Under the pieces are notes generated by a model that ran no database searches, was not told the origin of the DNA, and saw only the letters and a list, made by a program, of their open reading frames with translations. A stretch of 12,409 nucleotides of DNA from a virus (Duplodnaviria > Heunggongvirae > Uroviricota > Caudoviricetes): IMG/VR virus record IMGVR_UViG_3300028968_000090. One strand, given 5' to 3'. Every line of letters starts with the position of its first letter. Position 1 is the first letter of the stretch. Shown in pieces: positions 272 to 9,859 of this stretch. Both the position numbers and the translations under genes were made by a program.

Positions 272-341
272 GTTTTCGGTGGAAAAGCCAGAGGCGACAC
301 CGAAAGAGAATTCTGATCTTATTAATCTTATCTATCTTAGT

Positions 342-393
342 TATCTTACTTACTTATCTTACTTACTTATCTTACTTACTTATCTTACTTACT
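342..393 (+). repeat. Tandem direct repeat, 4 perfect copies of the 13-bp unit tatcttacttact, with degenerate copies on both sides
   Basis: Perfect units at 342..354, 355..367, 368..380 and 381..393. Degenerate copies at about 320..341 and 394..406. Confidence 0.85.
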
Positions 394-930
394 TTATCTA
401 CTTTATTATTAATAATAGCTTTATAAGCTCTCTGTAGCTCTCTGACGCAAGAAACAGCATTCAGGAAGGGAATCACCTTAGAAAAGTGTTCTTTGCGTCA
501 TAATGTGTTTTATGAAGGATTCAGAGGTGTTTCATAACAGAGATGTATAGAGGATACTTTAATTAATTAAAAATAAGGGGTCTAAATGCTTCTCTAACAG
601 CATTAAGCAGGGTAGAGAATGGAAACGCATTGCCTACATATATAAGCTCACTACAGGGCTTTACAGAACGTTTTATAAAGTGACTCTCTATCTTATATCT
701 ACCATTACCTTTTCATATACCTAACAAATACAAAATAAGCCCCTTAAATAAGCCTCTGGCGAGCTAAACAACCTCTACATAAGAGAATGTATTGCTTTTA
801 TCAAAACTTCGTTAGAACGCGTTTTAGAGCGTTTTAGACAATAATGAAGAATAGCACCACACAGGAGAGCACGAATTGCTAAGAAAAAATGTAAGTGCAT
901 GAAAAAGATCAGATTTTTTATGAAAAGGTA

Positions 931-1259: not shown

Positions 1260-1278
1260 AGAATAGAAGGAGAAAACT

Positions 1279-1446
1279 ATGAGCGAAACTAAGAAACCAA
1301 TTCCGCGCACTTACCTACACGTTGACCCTGAAATCTTCAAGGTTTTATTTGCTGAAGCCAAGAAAAGGCAAATTATGGTCAGTGATTTGATGTTAGAAAT
1401 CATTACTGAAGCAGCAGAGAACATCAAACAAAAAAAGGGTAAGTGA
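1279..1446 (+). CDS. Small ribbon-helix-helix-like DNA-binding protein (55 aa); not in the supplied ORF track (below its length cutoff)
   Basis: ATG at 1279 preceded by aaggag; TGA at 1444..1446. Translation MSETKKPIPRTYLHVDPEIFKVLFAEAKKRQIMVSDLMLEIITEAAENIKQKKGK has a beta-strand then two helices, the pattern typical of Arc/CopG/MetJ-type RHH proteins. Confidence 0.45.
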   Translation: MSETKKPIPRTYLHVDPEIFKVLFAEAKKRQIMVSDLMLEIITEAAENIKQKKGK

Positions 1447-1497
1447 TCCTCATTCACTTTAGTAGCGCATTAAGCGTGATTTATAAGGAGATTTTTA

Positions 1498-2190
1498 ATG
1501 ATTAATCAACTAACTTTTACAAAACACTATGACACGTTTGATAATGTATCAAAGATTTATTCTGATAAATTCCCTCAAGGAAAAGATTTAGATCTATTAC
1601 ATATTGTGCTTTATTTTCGATTCCTTAGTTATCAGGAAAACAACCTTAATTGTTATGAAAGTCACGAAACATTAGCTAAGATTTTTAAGTCTTCATCGTC
1701 AACAATTAAACGTAAGATAAACGATCTTAAAGAGATGGGATTATTAGAAACATCCCCACATCCTGATCCGTATATTTCATCTTTGATTTACAATGCTCTC
1801 CCTCTCACAGATGCACATATTACTCCCCCAGGAGAATCATCACTCTCTGATCTTTCTGAGGCAGAAGAAGCACAGGAACAACCTAAAGGCCATAAACAGC
1901 CTTCTTTTGATGTTCTTGATGATGATTGGGATACGCCTTTACCGTGGGAGACGGAAGAAACACCTGTTTCATCAAGTGATAAGGTAGCTAATGATAATGA
2001 GGAGGATGTGTTAGAGAATTTTGCCTCTCTTATCATCCAGAAGAAACACACCAGAACAGGAGGGGCATCATTTATAGAATTTGCAAATTCACTAGCTTAT
2101 AGACACGGGCTAAAACGACCAAATGGTATTGAGGCATATTTTTCTAAGAATTACCCAAATGTGTATGAAGACTTTGATATTCCATTTTAA
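1498..2190 (+). CDS. Winged-HTH-like DNA-binding protein with acidic C-terminal region (230 aa); possible replication initiator or transcription regulator
   Basis: Strong RBS (aaggag). Segment LSYQENNLNCYESHETLAKIFKSSSSTIKRKINDLKEMGLLE resembles HTH domains of phage/plasmid replication or regulator proteins. Central and C-terminal part is rich in D/E. Confidence 0.55.
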   Translation: MINQLTFTKHYDTFDNVSKIYSDKFPQGKDLDLLHIVLYFRFLSYQENNLNCYESHETLAKIFKSSSSTIKRKINDLKEMGLLETSPHPDPYISSLIYNALPLTDAHITPPGESSLSDLSEAEEAQEQPKGHKQPSFDVLDDDWDTPLPWETEETPVSSSDKVANDNEEDVLENFASLIIQKKHTRTGGASFIEFANSLAYRHGLKRPNGIEAYFSKNYPNVYEDFDIPF

Positions 2191-2201: not shown

Positions 2202-2480
2202 ATGATTCAATATTTAGTAAAAAATCAAGTAGACAGAATTCAGTGTAATGACACAGGAAAACGCATCTATGAAACGCTTGCTTACCTCTATAAAGGAAAG
2301 CCAACACCGCTAAAATATAGCGATGTGTTACATCGAGCAGGGTGCTCTGAAGATGGTTTAAAATTCTGGCTGAAACAGCTATCAAACTTCGGTGTTATAG
2401 AAATTAAAGAATTATCTTTCTCTACATTCAATCTCAAAAGACTAGATAAAGAAATAGAATTCATCTATTCCACTCTCTAA
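2202..2480 (+). CDS. Small winged-HTH-like protein (92 aa)
   Basis: Strong RBS (aaggaggg) 11 nt after the upstream stop. Segment KYSDVLHRAGCSEDGLKFWLKQLSNFGVIEIKE is HTH-like. Confidence 0.5.
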   Translation: MIQYLVKNQVDRIQCNDTGKRIYETLAYLYKGKPTPLKYSDVLHRAGCSEDGLKFWLKQLSNFGVIEIKELSFSTFNLKRLDKEIEFIYSTL

Positions 2481-2609
2481 AATCTCTCTATGTAATTAAA
2501 ATATAAAAGGAAAACATTATTATGATAGTAGCTATGTATTGGTTATTGTTCTTTCTCACGTTAGAAGCATATTTCGGGGTGTTTTCCTTTAAAAGAAAAG
2601 GAAAAATAA

Positions 2610-3020
2610 ATGGCAAAAAGAAAAAACAACGTTGTTAAGAAAATCGGTGATTCAGCTTCTCTTCTAAGTAAACCTAAATCTATTCTAAGACGTAAAGACT
2701 TTAAAGAGCTAGTTACGCTCACCAAGCAAAATAGCGCCCCTGGCGAATGGAAAACAGAGATCATAGAACATTCTCCCTCTGTGCCTTGCGGAGATGAATT
2801 TAACGCCTTACAAGAAATCTTATCTTCAACACCTGGCGTGTTCTGGAAACCTAGAAAAAGAAAAGAGTATATTGTTGATAGCTCTGATCTACGCAAATAC
2901 CAGATTTTAGGATTTGAAGATTATAATCACTACGTTGGTTATCTCGCCACCAATGGCCTAAATAACTTAGTCCCAGAATTCCAAATTCTATGTAATGCTG
3001 ATCACTATGGAGACTTTTAA
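2610..3020 (+). CDS. Hypothetical protein with basic N-terminus (136 aa)
   Basis: ORF with A-rich RBS region; lysine/arginine-rich N-terminal 35 residues. No recognisable domain. Confidence 0.5.
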   Translation: MAKRKNNVVKKIGDSASLLSKPKSILRRKDFKELVTLTKQNSAPGEWKTEIIEHSPSVPCGDEFNALQEILSSTPGVFWKPRKRKEYIVDSSDLRKYQILGFEDYNHYVGYLATNGLNNLVPEFQILCNADHYGDF

Positions 3021-3021
3021 T

Positions 3022-3360
3022 ATGAACAAAAACACGTATGACACAATTTACTCACTAATTAATTATTATGAGGATGATTACCTCCTGCCTTTAAACCGCG
3101 CTGAACTTGAAGCATACAAAGAAAACACGCCAGCGGCACTAAATGAGGCGTTTAAACACTGGGATTTAGCTGTGAATGCCTTCTCGCACCTCTCTAAGCG
3201 TGTAGAGATGCTCTGTAAGCGTGAGAACGCATATCTAACAGCGGACCAGGTATGGGAGCTATCAAACTGGATAGAAGGTCTTGAATCGGACGTTCGCTAT
3301 GTAGGAGACGGCCTTGTTGAACTAGCTCAACGCTTAGGCGCTACTATCACAGAAGAATAA
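3022..3360 (+). CDS. Hypothetical helical protein (112 aa from ATG 3022; the ORF is open from 2995)
   Basis: ORF 2995..3360 in the track. The ATG at 3022 has a ggag SD 9 nt upstream and is preferred over 2995 and 3007, which lack an SD. The stop/start overlap with the upstream gene suggests coupling. Confidence 0.45.
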   Translation: MNKNTYDTIYSLINYYEDDYLLPLNRAELEAYKENTPAALNEAFKHWDLAVNAFSHLSKRVEMLCKRENAYLTADQVWELSNWIEGLESDVRYVGDGLVELAQRLGATITEE

Positions 3361-3389: not shown

Positions 3390-3418
3390 TTGACATTTCA
3401 TCTATTGTATGTTAATAT
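3390..3418 (+). promoter_or_regulatory. Sigma70-like promoter candidate (late/structural operon), same architecture as the promoter at 931
   Basis: TTGACA at 3390..3395, 17-bp spacer, TGT, TAATAT at 3413..3418. Sits directly after the stop of the 3022..3360 gene. Confidence 0.4.
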
Positions 3419-3611
3419 AATTATATAGGGTGATTATTTTTCCTTTATTGGTTCGATATTAAAAATTCTTCTTGTCGTTAAAGGGGAGTAAAATCTCCGC
3501 TCCCCGCTTCTCCTCCTCCTTAAGTGTCATTATTACCTCTTTTTTCCTTTGTTATGCATACATCTTGGAGTATGCATAACATAGGGTAATTACATAGGTA
3601 CAAGTTAATAA

Positions 3612-3641
3612 AAGGCGGCTCTAAATGCTGCCTTTTATTTT
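3612..3641 (+). terminator. Intrinsic-terminator-like hairpin inside the leader of the late operon
   Basis: aaggcggc (3612..3619), 7-nt loop, gctgcctt (3627..3634): 8 pairs including one G-U, followed by ttttatttt. Lies about 60 nt upstream of the ATG at 3704. Confidence 0.4.
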
Positions 3642-3703
3642 GCCCGTTATGCAACTTAAAAGTTGTATTTCTTACTTTAAACAAGGTAACAAGGTTTATA
3701 TAA

Positions 3704-3916
3704 ATGTTGTTCTTAAATGATAAAGAGCAAATCATCAAATATAAAGATGAAATGCTGAAAATTAATCCACAAATTACCGAAATGGTAGCTAAATACGCTG
3801 GGTGTTCTGTCGAGGAAGTAGAAAGATGTGTTGAAAAATATTTTTCTCCTTCTTCTCCGTCTACACCTTCCCTTAATGAATTAATCAAATTAAAAGCTAA
3901 GGAGATTACTAAATGA
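3704..3916 (+). CDS. Hypothetical small protein (70 aa)
   Basis: ORF whose stop overlaps the next start (ATGA at 3913..3916), indicating translational coupling. Confidence 0.5.
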   Translation: MLFLNDKEQIIKYKDEMLKINPQITEMVAKYAGCSVEEVERCVEKYFSPSSPSTPSLNELIKLKAKEITK

Positions 3917-4275
3917 TTATTGATTTAGACACTCTATTTCCAGTTCGAAAGACTTTCACAGATATTGTAAGTTATTGTACTGATCCGTTTGCCTCTGTAG
4001 AAAGCAAGGTTTTTGCTTCTCTTCCTGCTGATGTTGAGTGTGGCGACTTGATCACAAGCACGGGCGCTAAATATGAATCAGGAGATGATATCTATGTTGT
4101 TATGAGTGAATTTTTAACGGCTGGAGAAAACAAGCCTGTAGATGTGCTACGTAGCAATGCTGGCCTTGTCTGCATCAAAGCTGATGCCCTGAATGCTGTA
4201 AGTGAAGCAGCAAAAACAGCATTAATTAAAAAAGGCTTCCAGCTTGAAGGCTTTAATACGGTTTTCACTTCTTAA
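3913..4275 (+). CDS. Hypothetical protein (120 aa); by position possibly a head decoration/scaffold-type partner of the downstream capsid-like gene
   Basis: Strong RBS (aaggag). Sits immediately upstream of the 342-aa gene. No sequence-level recognition of a decoration protein; the functional guess is positional only. Confidence 0.45.
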   Translation: MIIDLDTLFPVRKTFTDIVSYCTDPFASVESKVFASLPADVECGDLITSTGAKYESGDDIYVVMSEFLTAGENKPVDVLRSNAGLVCIKADALNAVSEAAKTALIKKGFQLEGFNTVFTS

Positions 4276-4293
4276 TAAAAGGAATAATAATAA

Positions 4294-5322
4294 ATGATTC
4301 TAGGTAATGATTACGTTGATTTAGCTCCGCTTTTCCAGGCTCATAGCACTAGAAACTATCTGCTCTCTACTCTTGATTTTACGGATTCTGTAGGGGTTAC
4401 ATCTCATAAAGTAGCTGTTTCCCAGCTTGTCGAAAGCAACGAATCTCTGTTCAACAAAGAAACCTCTCGTTTCTCTTCTGAACACAACGTTACTAAGCGA
4501 GAACAAGGTAAAGAATGGCTGATTGAAATCCCTTACTTCCTGCGTGAAGATGTGATCCGTCCTTCTGATGTTCAAGGCAAACGTAAACCTGGCACTGATT
4601 TTCAGGAAACACTCACTGATATTTATGCTGACTATGTTGCTAAACACCACGTAGCGTATCAGCGCACTAAAGAAAGCGTATTGGCTGCATCTCTGTTTAG
4701 CGGTAAAACTTACACGCCTAAAACTGATGATGTGTTAATTGAGTGGGGCAAGCTGTTTAACGTATCAGCTATGAAAGCCACTGTGAACGCTTCCAGCACT
4801 GACACCACGAAGATTTTTAAAGAATTTGATCAGATTGCTACTGACATTATCGAGAAAGCACAAAGCCAGGCGGCTGCTGTAGAGCGTATTGTTGTTTTCT
4901 GTAAGCCGGAAGCCTTCTCTGCAATTCGATTCTCTGCTGGTATGGCAAACGCATTCCAGTATGTAAGCCCACTGGAAGAGGGAAATGTTGTGTACCAGCG
5001 TCGTGACCTGCTACCAGGAGTGACAGCGTTCACTATTCCAGGAACTAACATTGATGTTATTAAACTGGTAGATCCGCTACATCTTGCACATATGACCGCA
5101 GACGCTGTAGCTGTGCCTAAATTCGCTAAAGGCTCTAACGTATATCAGAACATCTACGGGGCTGCTTCCAGCACCTTTGAACTGATCAATGCCGATCCTA
5201 CTGAGGTTTATAGCTACAGCTATGAATCTTCTCGTGGTGATGCTGTTAACGTTGTTACAGAGAATAGCCAGATGGTTGTAAACCACGGTGTAGGCTTCTC
5301 CGTTCAAATCACTGTTAAATAA
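4294..5322 (+). CDS. Putative phage major capsid protein (342 aa), tentatively lambda gpE-like
   Basis: Good RBS; the only gene in the element closed by a strong intrinsic terminator. Size and a few motifs (LAASLFSGKTYT, ERIVVFCKPEAFSAIRF) resemble my recollection of lambda E-type capsid proteins. The function is unverified. Confidence 0.4.
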   Translation: MILGNDYVDLAPLFQAHSTRNYLLSTLDFTDSVGVTSHKVAVSQLVESNESLFNKETSRFSSEHNVTKREQGKEWLIEIPYFLREDVIRPSDVQGKRKPGTDFQETLTDIYADYVAKHHVAYQRTKESVLAASLFSGKTYTPKTDDVLIEWGKLFNVSAMKATVNASSTDTTKIFKEFDQIATDIIEKAQSQAAAVERIVVFCKPEAFSAIRFSAGMANAFQYVSPLEEGNVVYQRRDLLPGVTAFTIPGTNIDVIKLVDPLHLAHMTADAVAVPKFAKGSNVYQNIYGAASSTFELINADPTEVYSYSYESSRGDAVNVVTENSQMVVNHGVGFSVQITVK

Positions 5323-5340
5323 TATTTAACGTGTAATAGA

Positions 5341-5374
5341 GGCGTGGCGTGTATTCACGCTTCGCCTTTTTTTT
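5341..5374 (+). terminator. Rho-independent terminator after the 342-aa gene
   Basis: ggcgtggcgtg (5341..5351), loop tatt, cacgcttcgcc (5356..5366), then 8 T at 5367..5374. Confidence 0.75.
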
Positions 5375-5408: not shown

Positions 5409-5612
5409 ATGGAAGTGATTCTGAAATCAAAAAATGGTGTACACGTACATTTAGATGCTAATGATTCTAGAGGCTTGTTAAATCTGAAATATCTATGTTC
5501 TCTCTTAGATGTTCCATATGAAGGAGTAAAAGCCCGTATGTTCAGATTAAACGAGAGCATTGATCAGGCTCTACACCATTTCTTAAGCAAAGAAGGTGAT
5601 AAAAATGATTAA
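5409..5612 (+). CDS. Hypothetical small protein (67 aa)
   Basis: ORF with gagagg RBS; stop lies 14 nt before the next gene's start. Confidence 0.45.
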   Translation: MEVILKSKNGVHVHLDANDSRGLLNLKYLCSLLDVPYEGVKARMFRLNESIDQALHHFLSKEGDKND

Positions 5613-5626
5613 TAAGGGGATTTTAA

Positions 5627-7477
5627 ATGTTAGAAATTAACACTTCTAAAATTAAGAACACAGTAACATTTAGTGTAGATAAAGACAGCTTGAAAAAAGC
5701 GAAAGACTCTATTACAGGCTTAAAGGGATTCGTAGAAAATATCAAGCCAGCTAAGTTAAGGTTTGATAATGTCACTAAAGGCTATAAGAAAGCACAAAGT
5801 GAAGTAGATAAGATTGCTCAACAGAAAGCTAAAACAGAAAAACAAAATCAAAGAGCACAAGCTGCCGCAGCAAGAGCACAGGCAAGGCAACAGCAACAAA
5901 TAGCAGCACGTAAAGAGAAAGCAGAATTAAAACTGTTAGACGTTGGATCAAGCATTAGTGCAATGCACCGTCTCTCTGTAGCGGAACAATATAAAGCTAT
6001 TGCACAGGCTAGAGAGATAGCAAAACAATATGAGCAAGGCGCTATCTCGCTTGCACGTATGAATAGCCAAATGAAACGCCTACAACAGCAACAACGTAAG
6101 ATTAATGGCAACAGAAAAGCTCAATTAGCCCCCGTTAAGGGAGGATCAGGGAATTCCGCCACTATGGGCGCTCTGTTATTTGGAGGCGCTACAGCGGCGG
6201 CTGGCGTGATGGCTGTAAGCAAAGCCTCTGATTTTGTTACTAGCAGCTTCGCTAACGCAGACACCCAAGGGGAGCTAATTCAACGGGCCAAGCTGGGCGG
6301 TGTAGACGTTAACCAGATGTATAATATTACAGAATGGGCGTATAAAAACGGCGTTGACTCTATGATGGGTGATCAAGGGGCTAGGAAATACCTGGATCAG
6401 ATGAAAGATGTTAGGGAACGTGCCGCAAAATCCTACAGTGAAGCTGAATTGGTGAAAGATAAGCAAACCGGAAAATCTAAATGGAAAGGCGGTGATAACG
6501 CTATTAATGAACTTCTAAACATCGGAGTTATTAACAAAAGCGACCTTAAAAAATTTGCTGATAATCCAGCCGGATTAATTTCTAAGGCTGTTAATGGAAT
6601 GATGAAAAAAGGGTTTTCAGACTCCCAAATTGGACAACGTTTAGAAGACCTGGGCGATGATTTGATGCTTACATCAAAATATTGGCAACGTTCCGTTAAA
6701 GATGTACAAGAAAGTATTAACCAGCAAAAAGCCTCTGGAAAATGGCTAACAGAAACACAGCAAGACTCTATTGTTAAGTTCAGAGAACTAAACAGACAGC
6801 TTTCACAGCTTTCTGATGCAAGACAAGTAGCATTCGTAGACGGCTTTATGAAATCTCTTGATCCAAAAGTAACGGAAGAGTTTATGAAAAACCTTTCTAA
6901 TCTCACTCCGTATTTTACAAAACTGGGAGAAGCCACGGGAAGTCTCTTTGAAGCTATTATGAAGATTGTAAACTGGTTTAATCGTAATGATGATAAGACA
7001 GATGCTATTCAGAAAAATATGGGTGATGCACCGCCATTAAGCAATGATGGGATGAAGAAGAATTTAGATAATCTCACTCCTGATCAATATAAAGGCGCTG
7101 GCACTGCAACAACTACACCTGATAATAGTCATTCTCTCTTTAACACGATTAAGGGATGGCTTTTCGATGATAATGCTTCTTCTGTGTCAGATGTAAAAAT
7201 GTCAGTCAGCGAAGCACCGATAACCAATCTCAAACAGGGTGCTTTAAATAATCTTGCAATGACAACTCCGGCTTATAATTTATCTCCTGTATTCAATCTG
7301 AATCCTACATTTGAAGTGGTAACAGAGGTTCCTCTTACTATTAATTCTGACACATCAAGATTAAGCGATTATGTGGATTTTACAGCAAGAGCAAGTCGGG
7401 ATAGCTTCTTGAAATCATTAACATTAACCAGCTTATCAGGACAATCCAACGGCGGGNNNNNNNNNNTCCCGCCATAA
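5627..7477 (+). CDS. Large coiled-coil protein with a Gly/Ala-rich hydrophobic segment (about 616 aa); tape-measure-, scaffold- or ejection-protein-like. C-terminus uncertain because of the N gap
   Basis: RBS aagggg. Q/A/K/R-rich predicted coiled coil at about residues 60-165; hydrophobic GALLFGGATAAAGVMAVSKA segment. The ORF crosses the 10 N at 7457..7466, so the reading frame beyond the gap is not established. Confidence 0.55.
   Translation: MLEINTSKIKNTVTFSVDKDSLKKAKDSITGLKGFVENIKPAKLRFDNVTKGYKKAQSEVDKIAQQKAKTEKQNQRAQAAAARAQARQQQQIAARKEKAELKLLDVGSSISAMHRLSVAEQYKAIAQAREIAKQYEQGAISLARMNSQMKRLQQQQRKINGNRKAQLAPVKGGSGNSATMGALLFGGATAAAGVMAVSKASDFVTSSFANADTQGELIQRAKLGGVDVNQMYNITEWAYKNGVDSMMGDQGARKYLDQMKDVRERAAKSYSEAELVKDKQTGKSKWKGGDNAINELLNIGVINKSDLKKFADNPAGLISKAVNGMMKKGFSDSQIGQRLEDLGDDLMLTSKYWQRSVKDVQESINQQKASGKWLTETQQDSIVKFRELNRQLSQLSDARQVAFVDGFMKSLDPKVTEEFMKNLSNLTPYFTKLGEATGSLFEAIMKIVNWFNRNDDKTDAIQKNMGDAPPLSNDGMKKNLDNLTPDQYKGAGTATTTPDNSHSLFNTIKGWLFDDNASSVSDVKMSVSEAPITNLKQGALNNLAMTTPAYNLSPVFNLNPTFEVVTEVPLTINSDTSRLSDYVDFTARASRDSFLKSLTLTSLSGQSNGGXXXXPP
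7457..7466. other. Assembly gap or masked bases (10 N)
   Basis: Run of n characters flanked by an inverted repeat, ggcggg on the left and tcccgcc on the right. Confidence 0.95.
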
Positions 7478-7498: not shown

Positions 7499-8212
7499 AT
7501 GGCGACCGCCGGGATTTTAACCATACGTGCAGCAAATACTCCAGAACAACACGTTCAGGCTGTTTACAAAGCAGAACAAGATATAAACTCTACAAAAAAC
7601 GAAAATAGCAAAGCTAATAAAACAAAAGGAGAGAACGGATTTGCTATTGTTACCAGTGGCTTGGCATCTTCTGGCAATGACGTTTATGAAAATTATATGG
7701 CACTGGCCTTTGACAGTGTAGACGATGTGAACGTGAGACGTTCGGCAGATGTCACAAGCTACCCCGTAGAAAATGGTGCTACTGTGTCTGATCACGTTCA
7801 AATTAAAAACAATAAATTTTCTCTTAAAGGGCGTATCTCTGAAACACCGATTAAAAGCGATCCTGGCTTGTTAAAGAGTGCAGGGGTGAACGGGAACAGA
7901 AGATCATTAGCTATCGACTACCTGAATCAGATTATGGACAGTAGACAGCCTTTTCTTCTTGTTACAGAAAATAAAACTTTTGAGAACGTTGTTTTAACAG
8001 GCATCGAATACACAGAAGAGGCAAGCGAATCCCTGGTATTTGATCTTAGCTTTGAGCAAATAAGATTAGTTTCTTATGGCACTGTAAACACTGTAGCTAT
8101 CAAAACACAGCCATCTAAGAACATCGGGGCTAATATGAAAAAACGTGTTAACACTGAAAAACCAAGTAGTGAAGGTGAAGACACTATTACTCCTGCCTTT
8201 AAGCAGGAATAG
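7499..8212 (+). CDS. Hypothetical protein (237 aa), last plus-strand gene before the integrase
   Basis: ORF with aagga RBS. No recognisable domain. Confidence 0.5.
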   Translation: MATAGILTIRAANTPEQHVQAVYKAEQDINSTKNENSKANKTKGENGFAIVTSGLASSGNDVYENYMALAFDSVDDVNVRRSADVTSYPVENGATVSDHVQIKNNKFSLKGRISETPIKSDPGLLKSAGVNGNRRSLAIDYLNQIMDSRQPFLLVTENKTFENVVLTGIEYTEEASESLVFDLSFEQIRLVSYGTVNTVAIKTQPSKNIGANMKKRVNTEKPSSEGEDTITPAFKQE

Positions 8213-8252
8213 CCGTAAACGCCTCTAAAACGCTCTGTAACGATGTAATTAT

Positions 8253-8286
8253 AAAAGAGGCTACCAATCTATGTTGAAGCCTCTTT
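8253..8286 (-). terminator. Possible terminator hairpin between convergent genes (downstream of the integrase on the minus strand)
   Basis: 9-bp stem aaagaggct / agcctcttt with a 15-nt loop. On the minus strand the stem is followed by a U-rich tract (ttttataatt). The integrase stop is 8 nt away. Confidence 0.3.
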
Positions 8287-8293
8287 ATTGCGT

Positions 8294-9628
8294 CTATGGC
8301 GTTGTTTTACGCCTTAAATTTGATTTTTTATTGATTGATAAGCCTTTCTCTATTTCAGGGTAGCGTAGAAGCTCAATATAGTTTTTAAGCTCTACTGGAG
8401 AAGCTGCATTCTTGCTATATGTGCGGAATGTCTCTGTATTACCGCGTGTATGGCCCAGGAGAAGGGCGATCCTGTCTTCTGGAATTTGATTTCGATCAAG
8501 AAGCTGTGCTACTCCGTGTCTCAGAGAATGAAACACCTTCCTTTCTGTTCCCTTTTCCCCTAAAGCCTTTCGTTTAGCTCTTGTAAATCTCTGCGTGTGC
8601 CACGTGGAACGTTTACCATCAGCACGTTCTGTGATGCTGGCGTGATAGAACAAAAAGCCATTGTGAGGCTTTTCACGAAGAGATAACACCAACGGAGTGA
8701 TAAGGCTATGCACAGGCACAACACGTGCCGCAGCTTTCGTTTTTCCCTGTGTGATTTCAAAACACAGCACACCTTCGATCTCTTTCACATCGTCTATTGT
8801 GAGACTTGCTATCTCATTGATCCGCATACCTGTATAAGCACCGATAAGACACAAAGCCATCATTTCTTTGTTTTCTGCTGAATTACCGGAAAATACTTGC
8901 AACACTTGCAATAGCTCTTTGTTAGAAAATGCCTCATAGCTCTCTCTACTTTGTGCCACATCAAGCCTATGCCCTCGCCAGGGGGAGAGCGCCCTTTCTG
9001 GCGCATCGTGGTAACGTGATGAAGCTAACTCCCATAGCTGGGCCATTGGGCTGATATAATTTGCAATTGATTGTTGTGAAAGGGTTTTTTGCATGTGTTC
9101 AATCCAGCCTGTAACAGTGGTGCGGCTCACATCTTGCAATGCAATATCAGGCTTTTTACGGTAGGAGAGAAACATCTCTACCGCTTTTCTTGCCTTAGCT
9201 AAAGTGGCTGGCTTCTTCTTCGTGCTGTTAATTGTCAGGTAGATTTCAAGAATTTTAAGCAATGACGGACACGAAGACGCTGTATCTTGCATTCTGGTAG
9301 CTGTTTTGGCGTATTTAGCCTTACTGCGTAACAGTTCCAGCGTGTTCTCTATTGTGCTGTTTACAGGGGCGACACTCTCCCGTAGACAATGGTATTCATC
9401 TGCAATCTGATCACGCTTTCTACGTGCAACACGAAGATTACTTGTATGTAGACTCCTGACAAACGTCCTTTTTCCTTCAAAAAAGGGCTGCATATACACA
9501 GGCAACGTGATCCTCAAATAGTAGTTACCGTAAGAATCACAGATTATGTATTGGTTAGGCTTGTATCTCATAAAATCTCCGGCTAAAGTGTCGGAGCGTT
9601 TGTAATGTGAAAATTGATTGTAACGCAT
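8294..9628 (-). CDS. int: Tyrosine-type site-specific integrase (phage integrase family)
   Basis: C-terminal catalytic signature: TGMRINE (Arg box), HSLRH, LLGH and a downstream Tyr (RTYSK). Sits beside the tRNA-derived attachment core. The internal ATG at 9571 has a ggag SD and may be the true start (425 aa instead of 444 aa). Confidence 0.85.
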   Translation of the reverse strand: MRYNQFSHYKRSDTLAGDFMRYKPNQYIICDSYGNYYLRITLPVYMQPFFEGKRTFVRSLHTSNLRVARRKRDQIADEYHCLRESVAPVNSTIENTLELLRSKAKYAKTATRMQDTASSCPSLLKILEIYLTINSTKKKPATLAKARKAVEMFLSYRKKPDIALQDVSRTTVTGWIEHMQKTLSQQSIANYISPMAQLWELASSRYHDAPERALSPWRGHRLDVAQSRESYEAFSNKELLQVLQVFSGNSAENKEMMALCLIGAYTGMRINEIASLTIDDVKEIEGVLCFEITQGKTKAAARVVPVHSLITPLVLSLREKPHNGFLFYHASITERADGKRSTWHTQRFTRAKRKALGEKGTERKVFHSLRHGVAQLLDRNQIPEDRIALLLGHTRGNTETFRTYSKNAASPVELKNYIELLRYPEIEKGLSINKKSNLRRKTTP

Positions 9629-9671: not shown

Positions 9672-9733
9672 GGTCGTAGGTGATGGCATTAACACGAGAT
9701 TAATCGAGTGTTTTACTCCTATTATCGGCACCA
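9672..9733 (+). other. tRNA-Thr-derived attachment site: 3'-end fragment of a thrW-like tRNA (pseudo-tRNA, ptwF-like)
   Basis: actcctattatcggcacca at 9715..9733 matches the 3' T-arm/acceptor/CCA end of enterobacterial tRNA-Thr(CGU) as I recall it. ggtcgtaggt at 9672..9681 matches the preceding tRNA segment but is separated from the rest by a 33-nt non-tRNA insert. There is no intact tRNA. Confidence 0.55.
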
Positions 9734-9859
9734 TTAAAATCAAAGAGTTACCCCATATTTAAATACACCACGTTTCCTCCTGTGCCGCATTTGTGCCATT
9801 GTAACCTTGGCAATTCATCAAAATACTGTTCTGACATCAGGCAGTGCAGGTGCAGCTAT

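What the first reader, a model, noticed from the sequence alone, without database searches (positions are those of the whole stretch)
4294..5374. 342-aa highly-expressed-looking gene closed by a strong terminator: putative major capsid protein of uncertain family
It is the only gene in the element followed by a strong hairpin plus T8 terminator (5341..5374), and it follows a coupled pair of small genes. Its length and a few local motifs resemble lambda E-type major capsid proteins as I recall them, but the similarity is weak. If it is a capsid protein, the element encodes its own shell protein without the rest of a head module. If not, the most prominent gene of the element is of unknown function.
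Basis: partly seen in the sequence, partly recalled or inferred. Interest (0 to 1): 0.55.

Follow-up and report, generated by a model that had tools for sequence, protein, structure and literature searches.

The report
Capsid gene of a phage satellite
The 342-aa gene is a genuine, intact, selected lambda-E/phi92-type major capsid protein, and it sits in a small (~12.7 kb) tRNA-integrated E. coli island that also carries its own tape-measure and tail-tube-initiator genes copied from large virulent phi92-like phages, which makes the island look like an undescribed family of phage satellites.

Summary
ORF 4294-5322 (342 aa) follows a translationally coupled gene pair and ends at the best terminator in the window.

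**The protein.** It is a real HK97-fold major capsid protein (MCP) of Pfam Phage_cap_E. Its closest solved relative by sequence is phi92 gp124. PGAP already calls it "major capsid protein". The P-loop-like motif is a chance match.

**The context is the interesting part.**
- The gene lies in a 12.7-kb element at thrW with an integrase and a rep-like gene, and no detectable portal, protease or terminase.
- The element does carry homologues of the tape measure (28-36% identity) and tail-tube initiator (60%) of virulent ~146-kb Stephanstirmvirinae phages.
- It also carries a 55-aa protein matching one of those phages at 53 of 53 aligned residues.
- The core ~70 aa / ~120 aa / MCP / ~65 aa / TMP is conserved in 12.5-14.2 kb islands at several tRNA sites in E. 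coli, Klebsiella and Enterobacter, and the same gene order occurs in Serratia.
- MCP dN/dS is about 0.1.

**Best reading (inferred, not shown).** The element is a satellite of phi92-like phages that makes its own small shell and chimeric tails. I found no paper describing it.

The parts
4294..5322 (+). Major capsid protein, 342 aa, HK97 fold, Pfam Phage_cap_E (the finding)
   Evidence: dN/dS is 0.09-0.13 and the gene is intact in all alleles. It has the highest Fop in the element.
5339..5374 (+). Intrinsic terminator closing the capsid operon (13-bp interrupted GC-rich stem plus T8)
   Evidence: top hit; dG -20.9, z -4.95.
3913..4275 (+). 120-aa protein, translationally coupled and always directly upstream of the MCP, in the position of the helper phage's head-decoration gene. 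Function unproven.
   Evidence: Synteny. dN/dS 0.07-0.24. The family occurs only in these islands and all members are 'hypothetical'. The poor model (pLDDT 60.7) gives weak fold hits to the ~124-aa accessory chains of the Sf14 and Bas63 capsids (E 0.04-0.16). There is no sequence-level support.
3704..3916 (+). 70-aa protein, first gene of the capsid operon, fast-evolving with a conserved C-terminal tail. Function unknown.
   Evidence: The idea of scaffold-tail mimicry was tested and not supported.
3390..3645 (+). Conserved control region: near-consensus sigma-70 promoter (3390-3418), 16-bp palindrome (3546-3585), hairpin plus T-run (3607-3645) just ahead of the capsid operon
   Evidence: (I25). 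Identical in L001 and L012 at nearly every aligned column apart from three indels (95% mean column identity over 353 columns, indel columns included), while the MCP dS is 0.2-0.4. No Rfam hit and no phage DNA match.
5409..5612 (+). 67-aa protein, always directly upstream of the tape-measure homologue. Function unknown.
   Evidence: Synteny. No similarity to the phage tail assembly chaperone or the phage 75-aa gene.
5627..7477 (+). Tape-measure protein homologue. The ORF end is inflated by a 10-N gap at 7457-7466. The true stop is probably near 7459, giving about 609-612 aa.
   Evidence: phrog_16051 at 9.4e-53. 28-36% identity to Stephanstirmvirinae TMPs, with a near-identical N-terminus. The N-run is shown.
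7499..8212 (+). Dit-like / tail-tube-initiator ('phage baseplate protein') homologue, 237 aa. Optional in the family.
   Evidence: PF21821 at 2.6e-29. 58-60% identity to Justusliebigvirus and other ~146-kb E. coli myovirus proteins. 91% nt identity over 79 nt to phage EC_OE_11. Absent in L013 and in the Klebsiella, Serratia and Enterobacter elements.
8294..9628 (-). Tyrosine integrase of the element
   Evidence: PF00589, PF20172 and PF13102; phrog_1.
9715..9737 (+). attR core, a 23-nt exact copy of the 3' end of tRNA-Thr (thrW); right end of the element
   Evidence: The partner copy lies at the thrW gene 12,734 nt away in L001.
1279..1446 (+). 55-aa protein (looks ribbon-helix-helix), identical to a protein of Justusliebigvirus phage inny over 53 of 53 aligned residues
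1498..2190 (+). 230-aa HTH / replication-initiator-like protein, 32% identical to the neighbouring phage inny gene
318..404 (.). 13-nt tandem repeats (CTTATCTTACTTA), candidate iterons or origin, continuing into iteron-like repeats just left of the window
   Evidence: D1, D2; L001 5464-5882.

Best explanation
The ORF encodes the major capsid protein of a ~12.7-kb integrative element that behaves like a phage satellite of large virulent phi92-like myoviruses (Stephanstirmvirinae: Justusliebigvirus and Phapecoctavirus). Shown: the protein is an intact, purifying-selected, codon-optimised HK97-fold capsid protein of the lambda-E/phi92 type. It is the third gene of a compact operon closed by a strong terminator. 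The element has att sites, an integrase, a rep-like gene and iteron-like repeats, and no portal, protease, scaffold or terminase was detected. The only phage-like structural genes detected are the MCP, a tape measure and a tail-tube initiator. All three have their homologues in phi92-like phages, and one small regulator-like protein is identical over its aligned length to a protein of such a phage. Inferred: when a phi92-like phage infects, the element excises and replicates. Its capsid operon is switched on, possibly by read-through of the leader terminator at 3607-3645, and the MCP is made in bulk. With the two small co-operonic proteins it assembles a small shell on helper-supplied portal, protease/scaffold and packaging machinery. 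That shell would be sized for a 12.5-14 kb genome, in the range held by T=4 satellite capsids such as those of P4, the SaPIs and PLE. The 146-kb helper genome cannot fit in it. The particle is completed with helper tails into which the element's own tape measure, and where present its tube initiator, are incorporated, as shown experimentally for PLE satellites of phage ICP1.
For: MCP identity. Function retained: dN/dS 0.09-0.13, intact in all eight alleles compared, highest Fop in the element, strong terminator. Element anatomy: att repeats and 12,734-nt size; integrase, rep-like gene and repeats. No other head or packaging gene was detected by Pfam, PHROGs, NCBIfam or PADLOC among the genes scanned, nor against a whole helper-type phage ORFeome, where only MCP (2.2e-6), TMP (9.5e-41) and Dit (7.4e-80) match. 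Link to phi92-like phages: TMPs of three element lineages all hit the same number (134) of phage records with the same organism make-up, dominated by ~142-152 kb Stephanstirmvirinae-type myoviruses. Dit is 58-60% identical with 91-93% nt identity at its 5' end. The 55-aa protein is identical to phage inny over 53/53 aligned residues, within 97-99.6% identical DNA. The MCP family profile is closest to phi92 gp124. Family behaviour expected of a packaged element: the core gene order is conserved in E. coli, Klebsiella, Enterobacter and Serratia. At least three tRNA integration sites are used. Element length is confined to 12.5-14.2 kb in seven elements from E. coli, Klebsiella and Enterobacter. 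The module is present in 287 of 5,426 complete E. coli genomes. Precedents: PLE satellites of a virulent myovirus encode their own TMP, TAC and hub protein and build chimeric tails (PMC12987554). The SaPIbov5 satellite encodes a capsid-protein homologue only 24% identical to its helper's (PMC8569155), comparable with 21% here.
Against: Nothing here shows excision, replication, packaging or transfer. Element-sized metagenome contigs turned out to carry host flanks. All 21 IMG/VR hits lie inside 19-76 kb contigs, most of them prophage predictions from isolate genomes, and none is an element-sized virion contig. No packaging signal, small terminase or DNA similarity to the phage packaging region was found. 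An MCP only 21% identical to the helper's would have to work with the helper's portal, protease and scaffold, which is unproven. The proposed accessory role of the 120-aa protein rests on weak fold hits from a low-confidence model. The element TMP is only about 7% shorter than the phage TMP, so it does not obviously change tail length. The T=4 size argument is by analogy from established knowledge and was not computed.
Confidence: 0.55

Rival explanations
1. Ccm-like size director. The element is a satellite, but its MCP does not build the shell alone. It co-assembles with the helper's MCP, for example by occupying the pentamers, and forces a smaller shell, as SaPIbov5 Ccm does with phage phi12.
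For: The element has only an MCP homologue and no portal, protease or scaffold, exactly like SaPIbov5. Identity to the helper MCP is 21%, against 24% for Ccm and CP. The helper MCP is the closest solved relative by sequence.
Against: The MCP is much more conserved among element lineages (57-79% aa) than the TMP (24-32%), although the lineages' TMPs resemble different helper genera. The MCP is not a recent derivative of the helper's MCP, being about as distant from Pseudomonas phage MCPs as from phi92. It travels with two dedicated co-operonic small proteins, and its very high expression signals suit a bulk shell protein. None of this is decisive.
Confidence: 0.2
2. Defence-only decoys. The island is not transmitted in particles. 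Its diverged MCP, tape measure and tube initiator are dominant-negative copies that poison capsid and tail assembly of phi92-like phages and so protect the population (assembly interference, compare Tai and PLE11 Rta).
For: Satellites and islands do carry assembly-interference defences (PMC11364771; Rta in PMC12987554). The phage-like N-termini of the TMP and Dit with diverged bodies are what an interfering mimic would look like. There is no packaging evidence.
Against: A narrow element size range across genera and integration sites is not expected for a pure defence island. Full-length conservation of a 342-aa shell protein under strong purifying selection with the fold intact is more than a decoy needs. 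A rep-like gene plus iteron-like repeats point to replication on induction. No known defence family matched.
Confidence: 0.12
3. Decayed prophage. The island is the remnant of a temperate phage, and the MCP, TMP and baseplate genes are leftover late genes with no present function.
For: Integration at a tRNA with an integrase, at the same site as the K-12 cryptic prophage CP4-6 (the K-12 point is from memory; locus context). IS insertions and truncations occur in some copies.
Against: The same minimal gene set and order recur in four genera and at several tRNA sites. All core genes are intact with dN/dS of 0.04-0.24 wherever dS is unsaturated. Size is constrained. The structural homologues come from strictly virulent 146-kb phages, not from any temperate phage.
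Confidence: 0.03
4. Encapsulin-like bacterial nanocompartment shell unrelated to phage particles.
For: HK97-fold proteins include encapsulins. Two encapsulin structures appear at ranks 49-50 of the fold search.
Against: The Pfam family is Phage_cap_E, not an encapsulin family. The top 40-plus structural hits are phage capsids with much higher TM scores (0.55-0.67 against 0.34-0.37). No cargo enzyme is present, and the neighbours are tail genes.
Confidence: 0.01

Closest known systems
Lambda gpE-type major capsid proteins (Pfam PF03864), specifically phi92 gp124 and the MCPs of related lytic myoviruses (PhiTE, Sf14, Bas63, ICP1)
   Same: Full-length Pfam match, HK97 fold, similar length (342 against 333 aa), no N-terminal delta domain, and a small gene directly upstream as in lambda (D-E) and phi92-like phages (decoration-MCP).
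   Different: Only 21% identical to the phi92-like MCP and 22-26% to the best phage hits. It is encoded in a 12.7-kb island without portal, protease, scaffold or terminase. Relatives at intermediate distance are all chromosomal genes of Enterobacterales and Aeromonas, not known phages.
SaPIbov5 Ccm (satellite-encoded capsid-protein homologue; PMC8569155, PMC5052747)
   Same: A satellite carrying a lone, distant (24% there, 21% here) homologue of its helper's capsid protein and no other head gene. In SaPIbov5 the outcome is a small T=4 shell.
   Different: Gram-positive PICI with a temperate cos siphovirus helper, against an enterobacterial island with a virulent 146-kb myovirus helper. Different MCP families. 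Ccm's pentamer role is shown by cryo-EM, while nothing is shown here. This element also carries tail genes.
PLE satellites of Vibrio phage ICP1 (chimeric tails; PMC12987554)
   Same: Small integrative satellite of a virulent myovirus that encodes its own tape measure plus a baseplate/hub-type protein with low identity to the helper's (20-41% there, 28-60% here). Gene order is small gene, TMP, baseplate gene. Both have a replication initiator with iterons (the PLE RepA/iteron point is from memory).
   Different: PLE hijacks the helper's MCP and resizes it with the external scaffold TcaP, whereas this element carries its own MCP. PLE is about 18 kb with a serine integrase (from memory), while this element is 12.5-14.2 kb with a tyrosine integrase at tRNA genes. 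Sequence homology to PLE proteins was not tested.
Capsid-forming PICIs (cf-PICIs)
   Same: Enterobacterial satellites that make their own capsids and take only tails from helpers. Some carry putative tmp genes (PMC12987554, Extended Data Fig. 10).
   Different: Here only the MCP, from a different Pfam family, is present.
P4 (Sid/Psu) and PICMI satellites
   Same: Small tRNA- or chromosome-integrated elements dependent on a helper. P4's 11.6-kb genome in a T=4 shell (from memory) is in the same size class. PICMIs parasitise virulent phages (PMC10803314).
   Different: P4 uses the helper's MCP plus an external scaffold. PICMIs encode no capsid-remodelling genes at all. No P4 hallmark gene was detected.

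Membership tests
Pfam PF03864 Phage_cap_E (lambda gpE-type major capsid proteins) | Whole-protein score above Pfam's gathering threshold with near-complete profile coverage | tested here: met
   54.2 bits against a cut-off of 22.9, E 1.6e-14, residues 14-341 on profile positions 9-329 of 329. All full-length homologues also carry PF03864.
HK97-fold capsid proteins | Predicted structure with N-arm, E-loop, long spine helix, P and A domains, matching solved capsid proteins | tested here: met
   Model pLDDT 74.7, pTM 0.75, 34-residue helix 103-136, low-confidence loop 47-74 where an E-loop would lie. Foldseek against the PDB: the top hits are phage capsids, E down to 2.7e-18, probability 1.00, TM 0.64-0.69.
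   K138 is Q, T, E, V or R and T139 is V or S in homologues. The motif sits at the C-terminal end of helix 103-136 followed by a strand. No NTPase family hit.
Phage satellites (general) | Small integrative element with its own integrase, att sites and replication functions | tested here: met
   23-nt exact att repeats 12,734 nt apart at thrW. Tyrosine integrase. Rep-initiator-like HTH protein and iteron-like repeats.
Phage satellites (general) | Lacks a full set of virion and packaging genes, so it must depend on a helper | tested here: met
   Only MCP, TMP and Dit homologues were found, with no portal, protease, terminase, sheath, tube or fibres detected.
Phage satellites (general) | Induced, replicated, packaged and transferred by a specific helper phage | not testable with these tools
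   Only indirect links exist: structural homologues and identical or near-identical segments shared with Stephanstirmvirinae. No free or packaged form was found in public assemblies.
cf-PICI | Complete satellite-encoded head module (MCP, protease, portal, head-tail connectors, small terminase); feature list recalled from memory | tested here: not met
   None of these except an MCP was detected by Pfam, PHROGs or NCBIfam.
PLE | Satellite-encoded TMP and baseplate protein homologous to those of a virulent myovirus helper (chimeric tails) | tested here: met
   TMP phrog_16051 at 9.4e-53 and 28-36% identity to the helper-type TMP. Dit-like protein 60% identical. This is a functional resemblance only.
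PLE | Sequence homology to PLE genes (large serine integrase, RepA, TcaP, etc.) and Vibrio/ICP1 specificity | not tested
   No PLE sequences were compared. The integrase here is a tyrosine recombinase and the hosts are Enterobacterales, so family membership is unlikely.
SaPIbov5 Ccm-type capsid redirection | Satellite MCP homologue incorporated with helper MCP to give a smaller shell | not testable with these tools
   Homology to the helper-type MCP at 21% parallels Ccm/CP at 24%. Particle composition is unknown.
P4-like satellites | Sid, Psu, delta, epsilon, alpha primase hallmark genes (list from memory) | tested here: not met
   No such family among the Pfam, PHROG or NCBIfam hits for any element gene scanned.

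The most novel reading that the evidence does not exclude
This is the type example of an undescribed, widespread family of enterobacterial satellites of virulent phi92-like (Stephanstirmvirinae) phages. The module is in about 5% of complete E. coli genomes at 80% coverage or more and about 10% counting partial or divergent matches. The same core gene order occurs in Klebsiella, Enterobacter and Serratia, and related capsid genes occur in Citrobacter, Yersinia and Aeromonas. The family would combine two piracy strategies so far seen only separately: a private capsid shell built from a single satellite MCP gene without its own portal or protease, and chimeric tails containing a satellite tape measure. 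Its tape measure would be swapped between lineages to track different helper genera.
Probability: 0.5. Interest if true: 0.78.

Novelty: new variant of a known kind. Interest (0 to 1): 0.6.

Why it matters
As a gene call this is ordinary, because NCBI's pipeline already names it a major capsid protein. The context is what matters.

- **Therapy phages.** Phi92-like and Phapecoctavirus phages are broad-host-range virulent phages of interest for therapy. A chromosomal element in 5-10% of E. coli genomes that carries diverged copies of exactly three of their virion genes is likely to affect their yield and to be mobilised by them.
- **Generality of tail piracy.** If it is a satellite, chimeric-tail piracy, reported in 2026 as unique to Vibrio PLEs, would be shown to be general.
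- **A new capsid strategy.** An MCP gene without any other head gene, in a Gram-negative satellite of a virulent phage, would be new.
- **Tractability.** The hypothesis is directly testable with available strains and phages of E. coli.

Tried and rejected
1. **P-loop NTPase reading of ASLFSGKT.** Rejected, because the motif is not conserved and sits in the wrong structural context.
2. **The 120-aa protein as a homologue of the helper's head-decoration protein.** No BLASTP or hhalign similarity and no PDB sequence hit. The only signal is weak fold hits from a poor model, so it is kept as a lead only.
3. **The 70-aa protein as a CpmB-like scaffold mimicking the helper scaffold's C-terminus.** The tail motif is conserved among orthologues. 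However, a profile of it does not rank the phage scaffold's C-terminus among its top hits in the phage ORFeome, so the idea is dropped.
4. **The 67-aa protein as a tail assembly chaperone or counterpart of the phage 75-aa gene.** No similarity.
5. **Shared packaging or regulatory DNA with phages in the non-coding left arm and the operon leader.** Nothing found.
6. **Known RNA families in the window.** None.
7. **Known defence families.** None.
8. **Free circular or virion-derived copies.** Element-sized contigs carry host flanks. All IMG/VR hits lie in larger chromosomal contigs.
9. **Close relatives in one-genome-per-species contigs.** Searching with the single protein found only one locus.
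10. **Nine literature searches for a description of this element family.** None found. The library is incomplete, so prior description cannot be excluded.
Full report
**1. The observation**

The ORF list gives 4294..5322 (+), ATG start, 342 aa. Two small genes precede it: 3704..3916 (70 aa) and 3913..4275 (120 aa). They overlap by 4 nt (ATGA), so they are translationally coupled. The 342-aa gene starts 18 nt after the second, behind an AAGGA Shine-Dalgarno.

The terminator is real.
- The hairpin at 5339-5363 followed by T8 is the top terminator-like site in the window.
- It folds at -20.9 kcal/mol, z = -4.95, and none of 200 shuffles folds as well.

One qualification applies. A hairpin plus T-run of similar strength (3607-3645, -19.2 kcal/mol, z = -2.8) lies in the intergenic leader upstream of this operon.

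"Highly-expressed-looking" holds up. The gene has the highest fraction of E. coli optimal codons in the element (Fop 0.62 against 0.31-0.54) and 3 of 12 rare Arg codons. The optimal-codon list was taken from memory.

**2. What the protein is**

Sequence evidence:
- Pfam Phage_cap_E (PF03864) matches essentially end to end: 54.2 bits against a cut-off of 22.9, E 1.6e-14, profile positions 9-329 of 329.
- PHROG 29 "major head protein" matches at 1.1e-15.
- Against PDB sequences, the single protein hits a capsid protein (9zbi, 5.6e-11) and phi92 gp124 (8.6e-6).
- A profile of 21 family members (A1) puts phi92 gp124 first at 1.1e-19 over the full length. Then come 9zbi, PhiTE, Bas63 and Sf14.

Structural evidence:
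- The AlphaFold2 model has pLDDT 74.7 and pTM 0.75. It shows a 34-residue spine helix (103-136) and a disordered loop at 47-74, where the E-loop of an HK97-fold protein would lie.
- Foldseek against the PDB returns phage capsid proteins at the top: PhiTE (2.7e-18, TM 0.65-0.69), Bas63, Sf14, ICP1, YSD1, Chi and lambda.
- This is the same group of lytic-myovirus MCPs, next to lambda and Chi, that a recent paper links by sequence and structure (PMC12846349).

The Walker-A-like ASLFSGKT is at residues 132-139.
- It lies at the C-terminal end of the spine helix running into a strand, the opposite of a P-loop's strand-loop-helix.
- Its Lys and Thr are replaced in most homologues.

The gene is functional, not a relic. 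It is intact at 342-345 aa in all eight alleles compared. dN/dS is 0.09-0.13 wherever dS is not saturated.

The annotation is not new. PGAP labels it "major capsid protein" in complete E. coli genomes, and one 90%-identity cluster holds 2,818 sequences named "phage capsid protein".

**3. Where it sits**

The right-hand 2.7 kb of the window (58% GC) is host DNA: a yagP-like LysR pseudogene fragment, paoD and paoC. The rest (33-47% GC) belongs to an island integrated at tRNA-Thr (thrW) next to proA.
- In strain PSJ-22, a 23-nt exact repeat of the tRNA 3' end lies 12,734 nt from the tRNA.
- The right-hand copy is at window 9715-9737.
- The window therefore holds the right 9.7 kb of a 12.7-kb element.

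Element genes, left to right:

| Position | Feature | Evidence |
|---|---|---|
| Outside the window | DNA-invertase-like serine recombinase and iteron-like repeats | |
| 318-404 | 13-nt tandem repeats | |
| 895-1446 | Small ORFs | |
| 1498-2190 | HTH / replication-initiator-like protein | |
| 2202-3360 | Three unknown genes | |
| 3390-3645 | Conserved control region | |
| 3704-5322 | 70 aa, 120 aa, MCP, then terminator | |
| 5409-5612 | 67-aa gene | |
| 5627-7477 | 616-aa tape-measure homologue, phrog_16051 at 9.4e-53 | |
| 7499-8212 | 237-aa Dit-like / tail-tube-initiator homologue, PF21821 at 2.6e-29 | |
| 8294-9628 (-) | Tyrosine integrase | |

No portal, protease, scaffold, terminase, sheath, tube or fibre gene was detected with Pfam, PHROGs or NCBIfam among the genes scanned. 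No known defence family matched.

**4. The link to phi92-like phages**

I compared the 16 proteins listed for the element with the complete ORFeome of Justusliebigvirus EC_OE_11 (145,528 nt, 2,268 stop-to-stop segments).
- Exactly three have clear homologues: MCP (2.2e-6), TMP (9.5e-41) and Dit (7.4e-80).
- The left-arm recombinase matches weakly.
- In the phage these genes lie in the orders protease, 371-aa protein, head decoration (130 aa), MCP; and chaperone, 75 aa, TMP (659 aa), tube initiator (236 aa). The element reproduces the local order around each.

Pairwise identities to the phage proteins:

| Element protein | Identity to phage protein |
|---|---|
| MCP | 21% |
| TMP, residues 155-610 | 28% |
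| TMP, first 66 residues | 55% |
| Dit | 60% |

The N-termini are strikingly phage-like.
- Dit residues 11-34 are 24 of 24 identical to the phage, with five synonymous changes (93% nt). The rest of the gene is 59% identical at the nt level.
- TMP residues 1-28 are 85% identical at the nt level.
- The TMP N-terminal motif is kept in all element lineages.

In the phage collection, TMPs from three element lineages that are only 24-32% identical to each other (window, L013, L006) each hit 134 records with the same organism make-up. These are the ~142-152 kb Stephanstirmvirinae-type myoviruses.

Two Justusliebigvirus genomes (inny, muut) share 97-99.6% identical DNA with window 1267-1836.
- The 55-aa protein at 1279-1446 is identical to inny gp185 over 53 of 53 aligned residues.
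- The adjacent HTH gene is 32% identical to the neighbouring phage gene.
- The element and these phages have therefore exchanged DNA recently.

The MCP is not a recent capture from the helper. It is about as far from phi92-type MCPs as from those of Pseudomonas myoviruses (22-26%).

**5. It is a family**

The order ~70 aa, ~120 aa, MCP, ~65 aa, TMP-like (609-629 aa), variable genes, integrase recurs widely:
- E. coli at thrW, at a second site with the same att core, and at tRNA-Gly.
- Klebsiella at tRNA-Gly.
- Enterobacter at tRNA-Gly and tRNA-Leu.
- Serratia, and metagenome contigs.

The Dit-like gene is optional. The elements use different integrases.

Element lengths from att repeats are 12,492, 12,734, 13,407, 13,541, 13,939, 13,963 and 14,164 nt. 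That is a narrow range across E. coli, Klebsiella and Enterobacter and three kinds of site. No att repeat was found for the Serratia locus.

In complete E. coli genomes, the structural module is present at 80% coverage or more in 287 of 5,426. A more divergent lineage brings the total with any match to 544.

An exhaustive profile search of 1.84 billion representatives finds only 251 proteins at E <= 1e-3. The intermediate relatives are chromosomal "major capsid proteins" of Klebsiella, Pantoea, Yersinia, Plesiomonas, Serratia and Aeromonas.

**6. How it most likely works**

Shown:
- A selected, high-expression capsid protein sits in a size-constrained, tRNA-integrating, rep-carrying island.
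- The island lacks most virion genes.
- It holds diverged copies of three virion genes of virulent phi92-like phages and has exchanged DNA with them.

Inferred: the island is a satellite of these phages.

There are precedents for each half.
- PLE satellites of the virulent myovirus ICP1 encode their own TMP, chaperone and hub protein (20, 20 and 41% identical to ICP1's). They incorporate them into chimeric tails and need the TMP for transduction. That paper called PLEs the first satellites known to do this (PMC12987554).
- SaPIbov5 carries a lone capsid-protein homologue, Ccm, 24% identical to its helper's. Ccm fills the pentamers of a small T=4 shell (PMC8569155).

My preferred reading is that the element MCP, with the two small co-operonic proteins, builds a small shell on helper portal and maturation machinery.
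- The element's 12.5-14.2 kb is in the range carried by T=4 satellite capsids (P4, SaPIs, PLE; established knowledge, not computed here).
- Such a shell would exclude the 146-kb helper genome.

The operon leader suggests control by antitermination on infection.
- It has a near-consensus promoter at 3390-3418, a roughly 220-nt leader with a 16-bp palindrome, and then a terminator.
- It is identical in L001 and L012 at nearly every aligned column apart from three indels, while neighbouring genes have dS of 0.2-0.4.
- This is inference by analogy with lambda PR'-tR'.

**7. Rivals**

- **Ccm-like co-assembly with the helper MCP.** This cannot be separated from a private shell without particle data.
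- **Defence-only decoys.** This fits the phage-like N-termini. It explains poorly the size constraint, the replication module and full-length selection on the shell protein.
- **Decayed prophage.** This is contradicted by the recurrent minimal gene set, intact genes and virulent-phage origin of the homologues.
- **Encapsulin.** This is excluded by family and fold ranking.

**8. What is missing**

There is no direct evidence of excision, replication, packaging or transfer.
- Element-sized contigs carry host flanks.
- IMG/VR copies sit in larger chromosomal contigs.
- No packaging signal or shared non-coding DNA with phages was found.

The roles of the 70-, 120- and 67-aa proteins are unknown.
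- The decoration-protein idea for the 120-aa protein rests on weak fold hits from a low-confidence model. It has no sequence support.
- The scaffold-mimic idea for the 70-aa protein failed an objective test.

**9. Novelty and verdict**

The gene call itself is already known. Nine full-text searches found no description of this element family, or of any satellite of Stephanstirmvirinae. The library is incomplete, so prior description cannot be excluded.

I rate the whole as a new variant of a known kind: a phage satellite combining a lone satellite MCP with satellite tail genes, directed at virulent phi92-like phages. It is of moderate to high interest and directly testable.

Noticed in passing
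window 7457-7466: A run of 10 N (assembly gap or mask) sits exactly where the tape-measure gene should stop. In the near-identical locus L001 the protein ends ...SNGG* at this point, so the window ORF 5627..7477 is over-extended by about 6 codons.
   Followed up: yes
window 3390-3645: Near-consensus sigma-70 promoter (TTGACA-17-TAATAT with TG), a roughly 220-nt leader holding a 16-bp perfect-arm palindrome (3546-3561 / 3570-3585), then a hairpin plus T-run (-19.2 kcal/mol) directly ahead of the capsid operon. The region is more conserved between alleles than synonymous sites of the flanking genes. The layout recalls lambda PR'-6S-tR' antitermination control. No Rfam family and no phage DNA match.
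   Followed up: partly
window 1267-1836 (ORF 1279-1446 and the start of 1498-2190): DNA 97-99.6% identical to Justusliebigvirus phages inny and muut. The 55-aa protein, which looks ribbon-helix-helix, is identical to inny gp185 over 53/53 aligned residues. The adjacent HTH/rep-like gene is a 32% homologue of the neighbouring phage gene, which has two such HTH domains plus an endonuclease-like C-terminus.
   Followed up: partly
window 5627-5710 and 7529-7607: The first ~25 residues of the TMP homologue and residues 11-34 of the Dit homologue are (near-)identical to the phage proteins while the rest has diverged. The Dit segment has 5 synonymous and 0 amino-acid changes in 24 codons. This points either to recent gene conversion or to a strongly selected docking interface.
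   Followed up: partly
window 318-404, and L001 5464-5882 (just left of the window): 13-nt tandem repeats (CTTATCTTACTTA, 5-6 copies) and several families of 21-33-nt iteron-like direct repeats in a ~2-kb gene-poor stretch. This is a candidate replication origin for the rep-like protein.
   Followed up: no
window 795-836 and 8216-8257: A 42-nt imperfect inverted repeat (76%, core 19 nt at 89%) brackets nearly all plus-strand genes of the element. A DNA-invertase-like serine recombinase (179 aa, phrog_125) lies in the left arm outside the window, and the helper-type phage also encodes a 'recombinase family protein' weakly similar to it (E 7e-4). Whether the segment inverts was not examined.
   Followed up: no
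L013, L006 and the window (TMP genes): Between element lineages the tape-measure gene is far more divergent (24-32% aa) than the capsid gene (57-79% aa), and the lineages' TMPs are best matched by different helper genera (Phapecoctavirus against Justusliebigvirus). This suggests modular swapping of the tail gene to follow helpers.
   Followed up: partly
window 9715-9800: The attR core and adjoining sequence are 98.8% identical to a stretch of temperate phage phi458 (44.9 kb). This is presumably the attP region of a phage using the same thrW site, which is also occupied by the cryptic prophage CP4-6 in E. coli K-12 (the K-12 point is from memory).
   Followed up: no
L011 12369-13645; H40-H49: Several E. 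coli copies of the element are interrupted or truncated by IS1, IS5 or IS600 insertions, in one case removing the integrase and the neighbouring pao genes. Part of the population is decaying.
   Followed up: no
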